This document shows, piece after piece, positions 52,513 to 60,557 of a DNA stretch of 64,000 nt. Origin of the DNA: an uncultured Clostridium sp. GTDB lineage: Bacteria; Bacillota; Clostridia; TANB77; CAG-508. Position 1 is the stretch's first letter; each line of letters begins with the position of its first letter. Both the position numbers and the translations under genes were made by a program. Under the pieces are notes generated by a model. The model saw only the letters and a program-made list of their open reading frames with translations. It made no database searches and was not told the origin of the DNA. The DNA lies in the NCBI GenBank assembly GCA_900555615.1, contig USMB01000001.1, positions 470 to 64,469 of the forward strand, in the 5' to 3' direction.

Positions 52513-53271
52513 ATGGAAGATTTTGCTGAATATATTTTAAATGAGAAAGATTTAATATCAAAAATGGAAATTATTTATTTTTTGGCGCCTAAGCTAGGAA
52601 TTAATTTTGATAAATCAATCGTGTTTAAAACAGAAATAGCAAGAATGTTCTTAAAATATTCTGAAATAGATGTAGATGATAATCTTGTTTTAACTGCTAC
52701 TCTTTTATGTAACTGTAAAAAAGTAGATGATGCTCAAAAAATAGGCAAATTGCAAACATATGCAAAAGAAGGTGCAGAATACTTGGCAAAACTTGGTTTT
52801 GATGAGAGGTTTTGCAGGATTTGTGAGGGTGTAAATAGGTATAGTGGTTTAAATCCAAGAGAAAAAGAAAGTGACATATTAGAGTTAGCAGATCAATTTG
52901 GTGGATTATTAATAGATAGGCCAGAAAGAGTAGGATTTTCACCAGATGAAGCATTTGTATTAATAGAACACAGAAATTTAAAATCAGAGTATAATAGATA
53001 CTTGGAGAGTTTTAGAGATTTTGTGAATAATGTTGAAAAAATAGAAATTTCAGGAAGAGTAAATACTACTGTTTTTGCAAGATTACAGAAATTGAATAGA
53101 GAGGCAAGAGATGTTCCTGAATTTGTGAAAAAGATGTCAATAGATTATTCAAATGCGGTTGATGAAAAACTAAAAGAATTAGAGGCAGAAGCTAAAATAG
53201 CTAGAGAAAAAGCAAACAGAGCAATGTTTAGCAGTGAAATTGAGGAAAAAATATTAAGGAGAGAAGGATAA
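52513..53271 (+). CDS. hypothetical protein
   Basis: Good RBS (AAAGGGG); ends 1 nt before the next gene start; no motif recognised. Confidence 0.55.
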   Translation: MEDFAEYILNEKDLISKMEIIYFLAPKLGINFDKSIVFKTEIARMFLKYSEIDVDDNLVLTATLLCNCKKVDDAQKIGKLQTYAKEGAEYLAKLGFDERFCRICEGVNRYSGLNPREKESDILELADQFGGLLIDRPERVGFSPDEAFVLIEHRNLKSEYNRYLESFRDFVNNVEKIEISGRVNTTVFARLQKLNREARDVPEFVKKMSIDYSNAVDEKLKELEAEAKIAREKANRAMFSSEIEEKILRREG

Positions 53272-56220: not shown

Positions 56221-58494
56221 ATGAAAATAGAAAACAAATTAACTTTTAATAATATTAGAAAAAATATAAAAAGAACAATATATACTACAATTTCAATAGC
56301 ATTATGCTCATTTCTTATAATAGCAACACTTTTGGTGGCGACTAGTATTGGCAAAAGTTTTAAAGAAAATATTGCCCAAAAATATAATGACTATTATTTT
56401 TTTATAAAAAATATAAGTTTAGATAGATTTAATAAAATTAAAACTAAAGAATATATTAAACAAATTTATTTACAAGAAAATAATGAAGGGCAATTATATG
56501 AAATAGATAATTTGCCAGATTCTTTCCAAATTACTGATGGAATAAATATATATATTAAATATGACAATTATAAAAAAACGTGTGCCTATACAAATGACAT
56601 ATTAGAAACTTTAAATTTAACATATATTGAAACAAGTGAAAACTGCGAATTAAACACAAAATTGCTAAACTCTTATGGACTAATAGATGTATCTATCATT
56701 CCAAATGGTTATGCTGATAGTGTCCCAACATGTCAAGCTAGGCTAAATTTCACATATGTTGCAGATATACTGCTTGTAATTATATTATTAATATTCTCAA
56801 TTTTATCAATCATAATATTATATAATGCATTTTTAATAACTATTAATGAAAGAAAAAAAGATTATGCAGTATTAAACAGCATAGGAGCAACAGAAGGTCA
56901 AATATTAAAGATGACATTTTTAGAAAATATTATTATAGGAGTAATTGGAATAATTATAGGCTTTCTACTTTCTTACCTTTGTTCTGATTTGCTATTAAAA
57001 CTTTTGAATAATATAGTAGCTTCTGCTATATACAATTTTAAATTAGTGTTAGATATTAAATATATAATCATATCATTTGTTATAATAATTATTAATATTT
57101 ATATATCATCATTAATTCCAAGCATAAGAGCAAGTAGCACATCTGTTATACAAGGAATTAAAAACAACAAACAAATAAAATCTCAAACAAATAATTATAT
57201 TTTTGAAAAACATCTTAATATAGAAGGAAGATTGGCTTTAAAGAATTTAAAGAGAAATAAGAATAAATATAAAATTATAACAATTTTACTTGTAATATGC
57301 ATGACTTCATATATTACAATTTCTACATATATAAATTATGAAAAAGTAGCAGCAAATTTAATAGATGAATATGATGTTGATGCTGAATTAGAACTTAGTG
57401 AAAACTCAAATAAATATTACAAAACCATACTTGATAACTATGGTACGACTTCTGGTGATAAAATTGAATATTTAGAATATAAGATAATGGGCTTATATGC
57501 TTTAGTAGAACCAGAAGATGCTCTTATAGCAAATTGCAGATATGCAGATTCACTGCATTTCCCAATCCAAGTAATTGGATTAGATGATAAATCTTATAAT
57601 AATTATATAACTGATCTAAATGCTAATAATGGAGATTATATCATTTATAATAACATTACCCAAAAAGAAGGAAAAACAGAATATGTATATAAATATTATA
57701 CTGCATTTGAAACAAATTATGAGTTTGATTTTAAAATAGTTTATTGCAATTATGTTGATGAAGAAGCTTCATATGAAATAATCGATGATGAAACTTTAAA
57801 AGAAAATTTTGTTTTAACAGAAAAGCTTCCTAATGGATTTAAAGAAATAAATAATACAGAAAAGATAACAATTTTTACAAACTTTGATACATTTAATAAG
57901 ATAGAAGAGAAAATAAATATTCATCCAAAAGGTACTAATCAACAAAATATATGGATGCATTTTGGAAATACAAGTAATAGTGGAAATTTTGTTAAAATCA
58001 AATGTGGAAATATAATTAATTTTTCAAATTATATGGATAATATTATTCAAAACCAAAATATTGATATTTCGGCAAAATATTATTCTTTAGAAAATCAAGA
58101 AAAAATAATTTATGCCAATGTTTTAGAACTAATATTACGAACTATTATTTTAACGATTATAATTATTGGAATAATAAGTTCTATAAATATAATAAATGCA
58201 AGTCTATGTGAAAGAGAAGAAGAATTTAAAGCATTATCAAGATTAGGTGCTACTAAAGAAAATATAATTAAAATACTAATATATGAAAATATCTATATGT
58301 TTATAAAATCAACAATAATATCAATTATTTTGTCAATTCCTATTTTATATGCGATTATAAAATCTATGACAAAAACAATTATATTAGATAAAATATTAAT
58401 TCCATTTACTGGTATAGGTATATTTATTTTATTACTATTTATAATATCTTTAATTATAGCAATATATTCAGTAAAATTTATAAAAGAAGAATAA
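56221..58494 (+). CDS. ABC transporter permease with two FtsX domains (MacB/BceB-like)
   Basis: Two 4-TM FtsX-type modules (about aa 180-310 and 640-757) separated by a large Asn/Tyr-rich extracytoplasmic region. Confidence 0.8.
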   Translation: MKIENKLTFNNIRKNIKRTIYTTISIALCSFLIIATLLVATSIGKSFKENIAQKYNDYYFFIKNISLDRFNKIKTKEYIKQIYLQENNEGQLYEIDNLPDSFQITDGINIYIKYDNYKKTCAYTNDILETLNLTYIETSENCELNTKLLNSYGLIDVSIIPNGYADSVPTCQARLNFTYVADILLVIILLIFSILSIIILYNAFLITINERKKDYAVLNSIGATEGQILKMTFLENIIIGVIGIIIGFLLSYLCSDLLLKLLNNIVASAIYNFKLVLDIKYIIISFVIIIINIYISSLIPSIRASSTSVIQGIKNNKQIKSQTNNYIFEKHLNIEGRLALKNLKRNKNKYKIITILLVICMTSYITISTYINYEKVAANLIDEYDVDAELELSENSNKYYKTILDNYGTTSGDKIEYLEYKIMGLYALVEPEDALIANCRYADSLHFPIQVIGLDDKSYNNYITDLNANNGDYIIYNNITQKEGKTEYVYKYYTAFETNYEFDFKIVYCNYVDEEASYEIIDDETLKENFVLTEKLPNGFKEINNTEKITIFTNFDTFNKIEEKINIHPKGTNQQNIWMHFGNTSNSGNFVKIKCGNIINFSNYMDNIIQNQNIDISAKYYSLENQEKIIYANVLELILRTIILTIIIIGIISSINIINASLCEREEEFKALSRLGATKENIIKILIYENIYMFIKSTIISIILSIPILYAIIKSMTKTIILDKILIPFTGIGIFILLLFIISLIIAIYSVKFIKEE

Positions 58495-59765: not shown

Positions 59766-59834
59766 GTTTTACCTCCCATAATGATATTATATACTAAAAA
59801 TATAAAATTTGAATAAAAAATTATAATAAAACTA

Positions 59835-59863
59835 TTGAAAAAATAATAAAAAGTGTGTATAAT
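59835..59863 (+). promoter_or_regulatory. sigma-A type promoter of the type III TA locus (TTGAAA-17-TATAAT)
   Basis: TTGAAA at 59835-59840, TATAAT at 59858-59863. Confidence 0.6.
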
Positions 59864-59904
59864 GAATACAATAGTAGTAGATATTTAATATCTACTATAA
59901 TTAA

Positions 59905-60005
59905 AATGTGAACCGCAACCCTATTTGCGAAATATAAATTTATAGGTGAGAGAATGTGAACCGCAACCCTGCTTGCGAGATATAAATGTGCAGGTGGAAA
60001 AATGT
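59905..60005 (+). ncRNA. type III antitoxin RNA: 2.1 tandem 48-nt repeats
   Basis: R1 59905-59952 and R2 59953-60000 are identical at 39 of 48 positions, followed by a partial AATGT. Each unit has a CGCAA/TTGCG hairpin, and unit positions 16-20/38-42 covary (CCTAT/ATAGG versus CCTGC/GCAGG). Confidence 0.65.
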
Positions 60006-60017
60006 TATTATAGTGAA

Positions 60018-60051
60018 ATATGGGGTCTATAAAAATAGGTCCCATATTTTC
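60018..60051 (+). terminator. intrinsic terminator between the antitoxin repeats and the toxin ORF
   Basis: 13-bp stem ATATGGGGTCTAT / ATAGGTCCCATAT (two G-U pairs) followed by a T-run. Confidence 0.7.
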
Positions 60052-60073
60052 GTAAAGGAGAGATGAAATAAAA

Positions 60074-60492
60074 ATGGTAATAGAAGATGGAAAATTTTAT
60101 TTTATAAAAGATGAGTTTTTTGATGTGTTTAAGGATTATGGATTAATGGTAAATAAAGAAAATGGGAATAAAAGACCATGTTATTTTTGTTTTAAAGATA
60201 GAAAAAATAAAGAAATAATTTGGTTTGTTCCAATATCTACAAAATATGAAAAATATAAGGAACTTTATGAAACAAAAAAAACAAAAGTGGAAAAAGACCT
60301 GTTTACAACTTTGTATTTGGAAATGTATTAGGAAAAAAGGCTGTATTTTTAATTCAAAATATATTTCCAACAACAGTTAGAGATAACGTTATCATTACAT
60401 CTCTTAGGGTTGTAGAGTTAGCTGAAAGAGGAATCAATATTCCGTTTTATGATATTGTGAAGATGAAAAATTTGCTATTAAATAAACAGTAA
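60074..60492 (+). pseudogene. ToxN/AbiQ/CptN-like type III toxin endoribonuclease, interrupted by a frameshift
   Basis: Frame 1 (60074-60331) reads GKFYFIKDEFFDVF...RPCYFCF...IIWFVPISTK, like the ToxN FY..S..Y...L..FD / YLAPLTSPK blocks. A second frame is open from 60271 to 60492 (KRPVYNFVFGNVLGKKAVFLIQNIFPTT...); the junction lies among A-runs at 60274-60295. Confidence 0.6.
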
Positions 60493-60507
60493 ATTATATT
60501 GAGGATT

Positions 60508-60557
60508 AAAAAATAACCTTACAAAATTGATGAAATTTTATTGTAAGGTTATTTTTT
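60508..60557 (+). terminator. intrinsic terminator
   Basis: 13-bp stem AATAACCTTACAA / TTGTAAGGTTATT followed by a T-run. Confidence 0.75.

What the first reader, a model, noticed from the sequence alone, without database searches (positions are those of the whole stretch)
59835..60557. Type III toxin-antitoxin locus (CptIN/ToxIN-like) with covarying 48-nt RNA repeats and a frameshifted toxin
Seen in sequence: the order is a TTGAAA-17-TATAAT promoter, two complete 48-nt tandem repeats plus a partial third (59905-60005), an intrinsic terminator (60018-60051), and then an ORF. The ORF N-terminus (GKFYFIKDEFFDVF..., IIWFVPISTK) resembles ToxN/AbiQ toxins. Established knowledge: promoter, tandem antitoxin RNA repeats, leaky terminator and endoribonuclease toxin is the defining layout of type III TA and abortive-infection systems, and the CptIN family is described with about two repeats of roughly 45 nt. 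The two repeats differ at 9 positions. Four of these form two compensatory pairs: unit positions 19-20 and 38-39 give CCTAT/ATAGG in R1 and CCTGC/GCAGG in R2. This supports a conserved helix that involves the loop of the CGCAA/TTGCG hairpin, meaning either a pseudoknot or alternative folds. The toxin reading frame breaks: frame 1 stops at 60331, while a second frame is open from 60271 to 60492. The switch has to fall among A-runs (A7 at 60274-60280, A5 at 60291-60295). The toxin is therefore either inactivated, phase-variable by slippage, or affected by a homopolymer sequencing error.
Basis: partly seen in the sequence, partly recalled or inferred. Interest (0 to 1): 0.75.

Follow-up and report, generated by a model that had tools for sequence, protein, structure and literature searches.

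The report
Decaying CptIN type III toxin-antitoxin locus
This is an ordinary member of the known CptIN family of RNA-antitoxin/protein-toxin modules from a gut Clostridia bacterium: its two antitoxin RNA repeats are intact, but its toxin gene carries a 60-base deletion and a one-base frameshift.

Summary
Positions 59835-60557 contain a promoter, a 5' hairpin, two 48-nt repeats plus a partial third, a terminator hairpin and a broken ORF.

**Family.** The repaired 139-aa product passes the NCBIfam CptIN toxin model (123.6 bits, cutoff 90) and matches the CptN crystal structure 4RMO. At least 73 of 80 related genome loci have the same layout.

**Antitoxin RNA.** Each repeat folds as the CptI-type H-type pseudoknot, with a one-base loop 1 and an A-rich loop 2 containing AUAUAAAU, as in CptI of E. 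rectale. Across 56 distinct units, 98.9% of cells pair and 7 of 10 pairs show compensatory changes.

**Toxin damage.**
- The frameshift is an A9-to-A8 change at 60274-60281. It is the only coding indel in 13.9 kb compared with conspecific contigs.
It removes 20 residues, including the tyrosine that aligns with active-site Tyr104 of CptN.
- Other strains carry different lesions. The promoter-to-terminator segment is the best conserved part of the region.

**Verdict.** This is a known kind of system, and here the toxin is decaying. Minor new points: repeats 1 and 2 stay distinct in every locus, and the 5' hairpin is conserved. Interest is low to moderate.

The parts
59835..59863 (+). Sigma-70-type promoter: TTGAAA (59835-59840), 17-nt spacer, TATAAT (59858-59863)
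   Evidence: Best promoter match in the region, 11 of 12. A TTGA(C/A)-17-TATAAT at the same distance from the repeats is conserved in related loci. The block of homology to other loci begins around 59800-59858.
59874..59898 (+). 5' leader hairpin: 11-bp stem with a 3-nt loop, a few bases after the predicted transcription start
   Evidence: Predicted by RNAfold. A hairpin at the same position is present in nearly all related loci, with different stem sequences in different clades: TAGATAT/ATATCTA, AGATAC/GTATCT, GAGATGTTC/GAACATCTT. It is absent from E. rectale-type cptIN loci.
59905..59952 (+). Antitoxin repeat 1 (cptI R1), 48 nt. H-type pseudoknot: S1 at 59914-59918/59925-59929, L1 at 59919, S2 at 59920-59924/59942-59946, L2 at 59930-59941
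   Evidence: Pseudoknot covariation. L2 contains AUAUAAAU, as in CptI-Er (primer sequence in PMC4627078).
59953..60000 (+). Antitoxin repeat 2 (cptI R2), 48 nt. Same pseudoknot, with S2 as CCUGC/GCAGG
   Evidence: R2 units of other loci are the nearest relatives of R2 in 76 of 76 loci.
60001..60005 (+). Start of a third, partial repeat (AATGT). Probably supplies the 3' processing site of R2
   Evidence: AATGT is invariant at the start of all 56 distinct units. It is also present after R2 in nearly all loci. The cleavage position is inferred by analogy with CptI-Er, not shown.
60015..60050 (+). Terminator-like hairpin between the repeats and the toxin: 16-bp stem, AAAA loop, ending in UUUU
   Evidence: RNAfold. 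Hairpins at the same place occur in related loci with clade-specific sequences. The strict terminator scan did not call it.
60056..60062 (+). Ribosome-binding site AGGAGAG, about 12 nt before the ATG
   Evidence: Read directly from the sequence. AGGAG/GAGG is conserved upstream of the start codon in related loci.
60074..60492 (+). cptN toxin pseudogene. Codons 1-69 are in frame 1. After the frameshift, frame 1 ends at 60331; the remaining native codons lie in the +2 frame up to the stop at 60490-60492
   Evidence: The intact 139-aa allele (P0001) is found on 14 contigs with the same neighbouring genes.
60274..60281 (+). A8 homopolymer, the frameshift site. Intact conspecific alleles carry A9, or C followed by A8
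   Evidence: Alignments. There is no A9 run anywhere else in the 64-kb window.
60365..60376 (+). Junction of the 60-nt in-frame deletion: the surviving copy of the 12-nt direct repeat TTCCAACAACAG
   Evidence: Comparison with L007 and L089, which keep the 60 nt flanked by the direct repeats. The 20 lost residues include the Tyr that aligns with CptN-Er Tyr104.
60507..60557 (+). Hairpin with A-run and T-run flanks after the toxin stop codon; likely a bidirectional terminator
   Evidence: Read from the sequence. It shows up as long-hairpin pseudo-matches in the Rfam scan. Not studied further.

Best explanation
This is a chromosomal CptIN-family type III toxin-antitoxin module in an uncultured, low-GC gut Clostridia species. 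Its antitoxin half is intact and its toxin half is decaying.

**How intact relatives most likely work** (inferred from the family). A constitutive promoter makes an RNA that starts with a stabilising 5' hairpin and carries two 48-nt repeats. Most transcripts stop at the hairpin terminator. Read-through transcripts allow translation of CptN, a Kid/MazF-fold endoribonuclease. CptN cuts the precursor at the invariant A/AUGU junctions. Each released 48-nt H-type pseudoknot bridges two toxin monomers in an inactive 2:2 complex.

**What has happened here** (shown).
- The species' common allele lost 60 nt by slippage between 12-nt direct repeats. This removed two predicted strands and the Tyr that aligns with active-site Tyr104 of CptN-Er.
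- The sequenced strain additionally has an A9-to-A8 frameshift. It truncates the protein to 69 native residues plus 16 out-of-frame residues.

**Consequence** (inferred). The locus as sequenced makes no functional toxin. The promoter-repeat-terminator segment is still under constraint and is probably still transcribed.
For: **Family membership**
- NCBIfam CptIN equivalog NF047359: 123.6 bits for the repaired product and 92.4 bits for the N-terminal fragment alone, against a cutoff of 90. Full-length relatives score 156 bits over the whole profile.
- PDB 4RMO CptN: E = 9e-13 for the repaired product and 6e-17 for a full-length relative.
- The AF2 model of a full-length relative has pLDDT 81.8. 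Its best PDB match is 4RMO_A at TM 0.71, followed by ToxN and MazF.

**Layout**
- At least 73 of 80 genome loci carry about 2.1-2.2 copies of a roughly 48-nt repeat, 48-92 nt upstream of the ORF.
- These values fall within the published cptIN ranges of 40-48 nt and 1.9-3.4 copies (PMC3401426).

**Pseudoknot**
- 98.9% of cells pair, and 7 of 10 pairs show changes on both sides.
- 0 of 500 shuffles reach the observed values, and slid controls pair in only 24-53% of cells.
- L1 is one base and L2 is A-rich and contains AUAUAAAU(G). This matches the CptI-Er description and sequence.

**Frameshift**
- The window differs from conspecific contigs by a single A in the A9 run.
- It is the only coding indel in 13.9 kb at about 99.3% identity.

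**Deletion**
- The junction and flanking direct repeats are seen by comparison with L007 and L089.
- The lost residues 99-118 include Tyr109, which aligns with Tyr104 of CptN-Er. That residue is described as specifying the scissile adenine.

**Independent lesions in other strains**
- L088 carries an 88-nt deletion and L089 a 5-nt insertion near the 3' end.

**Constraint on the antitoxin half**
- There are 0 differences in 216 nt against L007, compared with 2-10% divergence in flanking segments.
Against: - No expression, processing or toxicity data exist for this locus.
- A lone homopolymer sequencing or assembly error at the longest A-run in the region cannot be excluded without reads.
- The importance of Tyr104 is based on the crystal structure, not on mutagenesis, so the 20-residue-shorter protein could keep some activity.
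- The deleted allele is the majority allele in this species, found on 14 or more contigs. It also occurs in a divergent copy (L087) with an open frame. That is compatible with tolerance of the deletion, or even selection for it.
- The low-confidence AF2 model of the deleted form (pLDDT 46) used a shallower alignment, so it is weak evidence.
- The strict terminator scan did not call the 60015-60050 hairpin.
Confidence: 0.8

Rival explanations
1. The locus is a fully functional CptIN module. On this view the frameshift is a homopolymer sequencing or assembly error, and the 139-aa, 20-residue-shorter CptN is an active toxin variant still neutralised by the two repeats.
For: - The intact 139-aa ORF is the common allele, present on 14 contigs for P0001 plus P0002 and P0003.
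- The same deletion exists in a divergent copy with an open frame (L087).
- The S-T-K catalytic triad motif (ISTK) is retained.
- The frameshift sits at the longest A-run of the region, the place most prone to error.
Against: - The deletion removes predicted strands 98-101 and 109-112 and the Tyr that aligns with active-site Tyr104.
- The NCBIfam match stops at profile position 94 of 150.
- The assembly shows no other coding indel in 13.9 kb despite many A7-A8 runs.
- Other strains have further disruptive lesions.
- L087 is an outgroup to the window/L007 pair (dS 0.63-0.70 against 0.05). The shared deletion is therefore best read as recurrent, and the low dN/dS of 0.05 says nothing about selection after the deletion.
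Confidence: 0.1
2. The A9/A8 tract is a contingency (phase-variation) switch, or a site of transcriptional slippage. Strand slippage would turn toxin production on and off, or set it to a low level, within the population.
For: - The A9 run is the longest A-run in 64 kb and is specific to this species' allele. Most other loci have A5-A7 at this site, and two have A8.
- Both A9 (in frame) and A8 (out of frame) alleles are observed among near-identical strains.
Against: - Only one out-of-frame allele was seen among about 20 contigs.
- Two strains have replaced the first A by C, shortening the run without changing the protein. This argues against selection for a long tract.
- The gene being switched already lacks an active-site residue.
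- Other lesions in the population are ordinary deletions, as expected for decay.
Confidence: 0.07
3. The module is kept as an orphan antitoxin. After toxin loss, the cptI RNA is retained because it neutralises incoming cognate CptN toxins carried by mobile elements (anti-addiction).
For: - The promoter-repeat-terminator segment is the most conserved part of the locus: 0 differences in 216 nt against L007.
- Toxin-less cptI arrays exist right after the toxin gene in L016 and L060.
- Closely related cptIN modules travel next to an 89-100% conserved large serine recombinase in 27 of 80 species. Cognate toxins are therefore likely to be encountered.
Against: - The conservation could simply reflect how recent the toxin lesions are, or a local recombination event.
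- CptI is thought to need CptN for processing, and unprocessed RNA may not be protective.
- There is no direct evidence. This reading extends the best explanation rather than excluding it.
Confidence: 0.25

Closest known systems
CptIN of Eubacterium rectale (PDB 4RMO; Rao et al. 2015, PMC4627078)
   Same: - Toxin homologous by sequence (E = 6e-17 for the full-length relative) and by fold (TM 0.71).
- Two tandem repeats upstream, followed by a terminator.
- RNA is an H-type pseudoknot with a one-base L1 and a long A-rich L2 containing AUAUAAAU(G).
- The two-repeat array matches the 2 RNA : 2 protein stoichiometry of the crystal complex.
   Different: - About 25% protein identity.
- Repeat of 48 nt rather than 45 nt, L2 of 12 nt rather than 9 nt, and longer single-stranded tails.
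- The catalytic triad reads S-T-K rather than S-S-R.
- A conserved 5' leader hairpin is present here and absent in the E. rectale locus.
- The two repeats are identical in the crystallised locus but always differ here.
- The toxin here is deleted and frameshifted.
cptIN family as catalogued by Blower et al. 2012 (PMC3401426) and NCBIfam NF047359
   Same: - Chromosomal location in Firmicutes/Clostridia.
- Repeat length and copy number within the published ranges.
- Short or partial toxins next to complete repeat arrays were already reported for several cptIN loci (45-101 aa).
   Different: - This subfamily comes from uncultured gut Clostridia and is not individually described.
- Here the lesions can be traced to the nucleotide: a 60-nt deletion mediated by direct repeats and an A9-to-A8 slip.
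ToxIN / AbiQ (type III TA and abortive infection; PDB 2XDD, 7D8O)
   Same: - Same overall logic: promoter, RNA repeats, terminator, endoRNase toxin.
- Same toxin superfold (Foldseek E about 2e-4).
   Different: - No sequence-level match to ToxN/AbiQ.
- The ToxIN complex is a 3:3 triangle built from 36-nt triplex pseudoknots.
- Phage defence has been shown for ToxIN and AbiQ but never for CptIN.

Membership tests
CptIN type III toxin-antitoxin system | Toxin protein homologous to CptN | tested here: met
   NF047359 scores 123.6 bits (cutoff 90) for the repaired product and 92.4 bits for the N-terminal ORF alone. 4RMO matches at E = 9e-13. The model of a full-length relative matches 4RMO_A best, at TM 0.71.
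CptIN type III toxin-antitoxin system | Tandem direct repeats of 40-48 nt, about 2-3 copies, immediately upstream of the toxin gene | tested here: met
   48 nt in 2.1 copies at 59903-60005. The same arrangement is found in at least 73 of 80 related loci. Published ranges are in PMC3401426.
CptIN type III toxin-antitoxin system | Rho-independent terminator between the repeats and the toxin gene | tested here: inconclusive
   A 16-bp hairpin at 60015-60050 ending in UUUU is predicted and is positionally conserved, with clade-specific sequences. The strict consensus scan did not call it, and termination has not been measured.
CptIN type III toxin-antitoxin system | Each repeat folds as an H-type pseudoknot with a one-base L1 and a long A-rich L2 (A-minor twist) | tested here: met
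   Covariation over 56 distinct units: 98.9% paired, 7 of 10 pairs with compensatory changes, 0 of 500 shuffles as good. L1 is C15. L2 contains AUAUAAAU, identical to CptI-Er nt 27-34. The tertiary A-minor contacts themselves cannot be tested.
CptIN type III toxin-antitoxin system | Toxin is an endoribonuclease that processes the repeat RNA and is inhibited by the processed units | not testable with these tools
   This needs kill/rescue assays and RNA mapping. The only hint is indirect: an invariant AAUGU at every unit boundary.
CptIN type III toxin-antitoxin system | Complete toxin ORF with the conserved active-site residues (Ser-Ser/Thr-Arg/Lys triad and the tyrosine contacting the scissile adenine) | tested here: not met
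   The triad motif ISTK is present. The ORF is frameshifted at 60274-60281. The residue that aligns with Tyr104 lies in the deleted 20 residues. The locus is therefore a degenerate member, not a working one.
ToxIN/AbiQ family | Toxin matches ToxN/AbiQ profiles; antitoxin matches ToxI-type RNA | tested here: not met
   No Pfam hit, no Rfam hit at E up to 10 and no PADLOC hit. There is only superfold-level similarity.

The most novel reading that the evidence does not exclude
The two antitoxin repeats may be two distinct RNAs rather than redundant copies.

- In all 76 loci examined, R1 and R2 carry different stem-2 helices. The closing pair is U-A in R1 and C-G in R2.
- Each repeat type is closest to its counterpart in other species.
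- R1 and R2 have therefore been kept apart since before the subfamily diversified, without homogenisation.

This would mean one of two things. Either the inactive complex preferentially holds one R1 and one R2. Or the differing stems are selected to stop neighbouring pseudoknots from mispairing, or the array from collapsing by recombination.

Combined with toxin loss, the retained pair could act as a stand-alone anti-addiction RNA against incoming CptN toxins.
Probability: 0.2. Interest if true: 0.5.

Novelty: new member of a known kind. Interest (0 to 1): 0.3.

Why it matters
**For annotation.** The region should be labelled a CptIN-family type III TA locus with a cptN pseudogene and an intact cptI array. 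It should not be counted as an active toxin or a phage-defence gene.

**More broadly.** It is a clean, nucleotide-resolved example of how a type III module decays. The toxin is hit first and repeatedly: by a direct-repeat deletion, a homopolymer slip, and other deletions in sister strains. The RNA antitoxin and its promoter stay unchanged.

**Side observations for people working on type III antitoxin RNAs.**
- A large, previously uncharacterised CptIN subfamily exists in gut Clostridia.
- It offers rich natural covariation for the CptI pseudoknot.
- Repeats 1 and 2 are always non-identical.
- The 5' hairpin is conserved.

These points are modest in scope.

Tried and rejected
- **Pfam, Rfam and PADLOC scans gave nothing useful**. 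Pfam returned only sub-threshold noise (DUF1132, RNA_pol_N). The Rfam matches were miRNA/lncRNA pseudo-hits on hairpins.
- **Conserved synteny, as a sign of vertical inheritance, was rejected.** Only the sister genome L007 shares the flanking genes. Homology to other loci is confined to about 59800-60490.
- **dN/dS was tried as evidence that the deleted toxin is still under selection.** The ratio is 0.05 between the two deleted alleles. L087, however, is an outgroup to the window/L007 pair, so the deletion is recurrent and the ratio is uninformative.
- **An AF2 model of the deleted protein was tried as a stability test.** Confidence was low (pLDDT 46), but its alignment was shallower than that used for the full-length model, so I give it little weight.
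- **An error-riddled long-read assembly was rejected.** There are only 2 indels in 13.9 kb against two conspecific contigs.
- **Additional cptI copies elsewhere in the window were sought.** None were found.
- **The idea that non-identical repeats are a requirement of CptI function was weakened.** The crystallised E. rectale locus has two identical repeats.
Full report
**1. What is in the sequence**

- TRF reports a 48-nt tandem repeat at 59903-60005, 2.1 copies, 81% matches.
- With the unit starting at AATGT, R1 is 59905-59952 and R2 is 59953-60000. A third unit starts at 60001 and breaks off after AATGT.
- R1 and R2 differ at nine positions. These include 19-20 and 38-39, giving CCTAT/ATAGG versus CCTGC/GCAGG.
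- The repeat core occurs only twice in the 64-kb window, against zero expected by chance.
- TTGAAA-17-TATAAT at 59835-59863 is the best promoter-like site in the region.
- RNA folding of 59866-60075 gives two strong hairpins. One is an 11-bp hairpin at 59874-59898, just after the expected transcription start. The other is a 16-bp hairpin at 60015-60050 ending in UUUU (z = -3.5 for the whole stretch).
- The strict terminator scanner did not call the second hairpin. Its U-run is partly inside the stem.
- An AGGAG ribosome-binding site precedes the ATG at 60074.
- Frame 1 is open to a stop ending at 60331. The +2 frame then continues to the stop at 60490-60492.

**2. The protein is a CptN toxin**

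- Joining the two frames at the A-run gives a 139-aa product.
- Pfam, PADLOC and Rfam give nothing.
- The NCBIfam equivalog model for the CptIN family toxin (NF047359) scores 123.6 bits against a curated cutoff of 90. The N-terminal ORF alone scores 92.4 bits.
- The only solved structure matched is CptN of Eubacterium rectale, 4RMO, at E = 9e-13.
- The database search found 892 relatives. Most are 157-165 aa long.
- Full-length relatives cover the whole NCBIfam profile at about 156 bits.
- An AlphaFold model of one of them (pLDDT 81.8, pTM 0.80) matches 4RMO_A best, at TM 0.71. ToxN and MazF/CcdB follow.

**3. Two lesions, not one**

*(a) The frameshift.*
- A protein identical to my conceptual join (P0001) is encoded intact on 14 contigs. 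These have the same neighbouring genes as the window: FtsX/ABC transporter, flavin reductase on the other strand, the toxin, Alg14/Alg13-like glycosyltransferases and FtsE/FtsX.
- The window has A8 at 60274-60281. Those contigs have A9, or a C followed by A8, which is a synonymous ACC for ACA.
- Over 13.9 kb at about 99.3% identity to two conspecific contigs there are only two indels. One is this one. The other is intergenic, at 53269.
- The window has 69 A7 and 5 A8 runs but no A9.
- The assembly is therefore not riddled with homopolymer errors, and the change sits at what would be the longest A-run in the region. I consider a genuine slippage mutation more likely than an error. Only reads can settle it.

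- The 139-aa form lacks 20 residues (PTTE(K/E)YIENKYVNSNIDVEI) that the 157-165-aa relatives have. Its NCBIfam match stops at profile position 94 of 150.
- At the DNA level this is a 60-nt deletion whose junction is the 12-nt sequence TTCCAACAACAG at 60365-60376.
- The sister genome L007 keeps the 60 nt. It is 93-97% identical with the same synteny and has an intact 159-aa toxin.
- A conspecific contig, L089, also keeps the 60 nt. There it is flanked by two perfect copies of that 12-mer. This is the signature of replication slippage between direct repeats.
- In the pairwise alignment to 4RMO, the deleted stretch contains the Tyr aligned with Tyr104 of CptN-Er.
- Rao et al. describe Tyr104 as specifying the scissile adenine and stacking on G44, with the neighbouring Ile106 contacting the RNA duplex (PMC4627078).
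- In the AF2 model, residues 99-118 form strand 98-101, helix 102-106 and strand 109-112.
- A model of the deleted form is of low confidence (pLDDT 46). Its alignment was shallower, so I treat this as weak support only.

*(c) Other lesions in the population.*
- L088 has the 60-nt deletion plus an 88-nt deletion of 60079-60166.
- L089 has no 60-nt deletion but carries a 5-nt insertion near the 3' end that extends the frame.
- L087 is a divergent copy in another genomic context and has the same 60-nt deletion.
- L087 is an outgroup to the window/L007 pair (dS 0.63-0.70 against 0.05). The deletion is therefore best explained as recurrent, and the low dN/dS of 0.05 cannot be read as selection on the deleted form.

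**4. The RNA is a CptI-type pseudoknot, with strong comparative support**

- At least 73 of 80 genome loci from uncultured gut Clostridia carry 1.9-2.3 copies of a 46-49-nt repeat, 48-92 nt upstream of the toxin ORF.
- I extracted R1 and R2 from 76 loci, giving 56 distinct units.
- I tested this structure: S1 at unit positions 10-14 with 21-25, L1 at position 15, S2 at positions 16-20 with 38-42, and L2 at positions 26-37.
- 98.9% of cells form standard pairs, and 7 of 10 pairs show changes on both sides. Examples are CGCAA/TTGCG to CGGAG/CTCCG or CGCCA/TGGCG in S1, and CCTAT/ATAGG, CCTGC/GCAGG, CCTAC/GTAGG, CCTGT/ACAGG and GTCAC/GTGA in S2.
- None of 500 shuffles reaches the observed values, and sliding the partners drops pairing to 24-53%.
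- The topology matches the published description of CptI-Er: two stems, a single-base L1 and a long A-rich L2.
- The 45-nt CptI-Er sequence can be reconstructed from the cloning primer in that paper. Its L2 is AUAUAAAUG. The window's R2 has AGAUAUAAAUGU and R1 has AAAUAUAAAUUU.
- The A29 and 'kink' U30 shown by mutagenesis to be essential in CptI-Er therefore have direct counterparts here.
- AAUGU is invariant at the start of every unit and recurs after R2. By analogy with cleavage after A45 in ...UUGA/AAGU of CptI-Er, I infer processing at A/AUGU. That would release exactly two 48-nt units, matching the 2:2 complex. This step is inferred, not shown.

**5. Further conserved features**

- The promoter is conserved.
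- So is a hairpin a few bases after the start site. Its sequence differs between clades while the pairing is kept. It is absent from E. rectale-type loci. A 5'-terminal stem-loop that stabilises the RNA is the simplest reading. A palindromic operator is not excluded.
- The terminator hairpin is likewise conserved in position, with clade-specific sequences.
- R1 and R2 never share the same S2 helix (0 of 76 loci). Each R1 is closest to another R1 (75 of 76) and each R2 to another R2 (76 of 76). The two repeats are therefore old, separately evolving units.
- The crystallised E. rectale locus has two identical repeats. Some sister loci also show compensatory differences between their repeats. Non-identity is therefore common but not required.

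**6. Context and constraint**

- Homology to other loci is limited to about 59800-60490, that is, from the promoter to the stop codon.
- The flanking genes are shared only with L007.
- In 27 of 80 species, an 89-100% conserved large serine recombinase lies 0.2-1.7 kb downstream. Two loci carry a second, toxin-less cptI array.
- Elsewhere, then, the module rides on a mobile element. In the window it is stranded between housekeeping genes.
- Between the window and L007, the 216-nt promoter-to-terminator segment has no differences. Neighbouring segments differ by 2-10%, so at the local 2-3% rate one would expect 4-6 differences.
- The antitoxin half is thus the most conserved part of the locus, while the toxin half accumulates lesions.

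**7. Interpretation**

- The locus is a CptIN-family type III TA module. Membership is met for the toxin, the repeat array and the pseudoknot.
- The requirement for an intact toxin ORF and active site is not met. It is a degenerate member.
- Short toxins next to complete repeat arrays were already noted for cptIN loci in 2012.
- The rivals cannot be excluded without experiments but are less well supported. They are a functional variant with a sequencing error, phase variation at the A-tract, and a retained orphan antitoxin.
- The orphan-antitoxin idea is compatible with the main reading.
- The abortive-infection role is not established for any CptIN system. Two loci tested in E. coli gave no phage protection but did stabilise plasmids.

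**8. Verdict**

This is a new, decaying member of a known kind. Interest is low to moderate (0.3). Its value lies in correct annotation, a clear example of toxin-first decay, and a rich natural covariation set for the CptI pseudoknot.

Noticed in passing
window 59874-59898: A conserved 5' leader hairpin lies between the promoter and the first repeat. Related loci keep a hairpin here with clade-specific stems. E. rectale-type cptIN loci lack it. I found no description of it in the CptIN papers I read.
   Followed up: partly
L016:2480-2640 and L060:2480-2610: A second cptI-like two-repeat array with its own terminator sits directly after the toxin stop codon, with no second toxin gene. In L016 it is followed by a unit resembling the E. 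rectale-type repeat.
   Followed up: partly
27 of the loci L007-L086 (e.g. L060:2720-4360), and L087: A large serine recombinase, 89-100% identical in protein across different species, lies 0.2-1.7 kb downstream of cptN on the same strand. This suggests the module is cargo of a widely shared integrative element. The window has no such gene next to its module.
   Followed up: partly
protein P0009 (623-nt ENA contig, not fetched): A 159-aa allele is identical to the window lineage from about residue 44 onward and includes the 20 residues deleted here. Its first 43 or so residues are divergent. It looks like a recombinant (mosaic) cptN.
   Followed up: no
window 57530-57770 (inside the 757-aa FtsX-family permease ORF 56221-58494): One conspecific contig (L090) differs from the window by a cluster of indels and substitutions here and encodes 768 instead of 757 residues. 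Two others are colinear with the window. This looks like a hypervariable segment of the permease.
   Followed up: no
window 53269: This is the only other indel against conspecific contigs in 13.9 kb: A4 here versus A5, between a GGA-rich ribosome-binding site and an ATG.
   Followed up: no
L093, L113, L134 (E. rectale-type cptI arrays from gut metagenomes): The crystallised CptIN-Er locus type has two identical 45-nt repeats (L097, L102). Sister loci have R1/R2 pairs that differ by compensatory changes in both stems (ACCAC/GTGGT versus ACCGC/GCGGT; CCGA/TCGG versus CCAA/TTGG).
   Followed up: partly
window 60507-60557: A long hairpin flanked by an A-run and a T-run follows the toxin stop codon, before the Alg14-like gene. 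It is probably a bidirectional terminator. It produced spurious miRNA hits in the Rfam scan.
   Followed up: no
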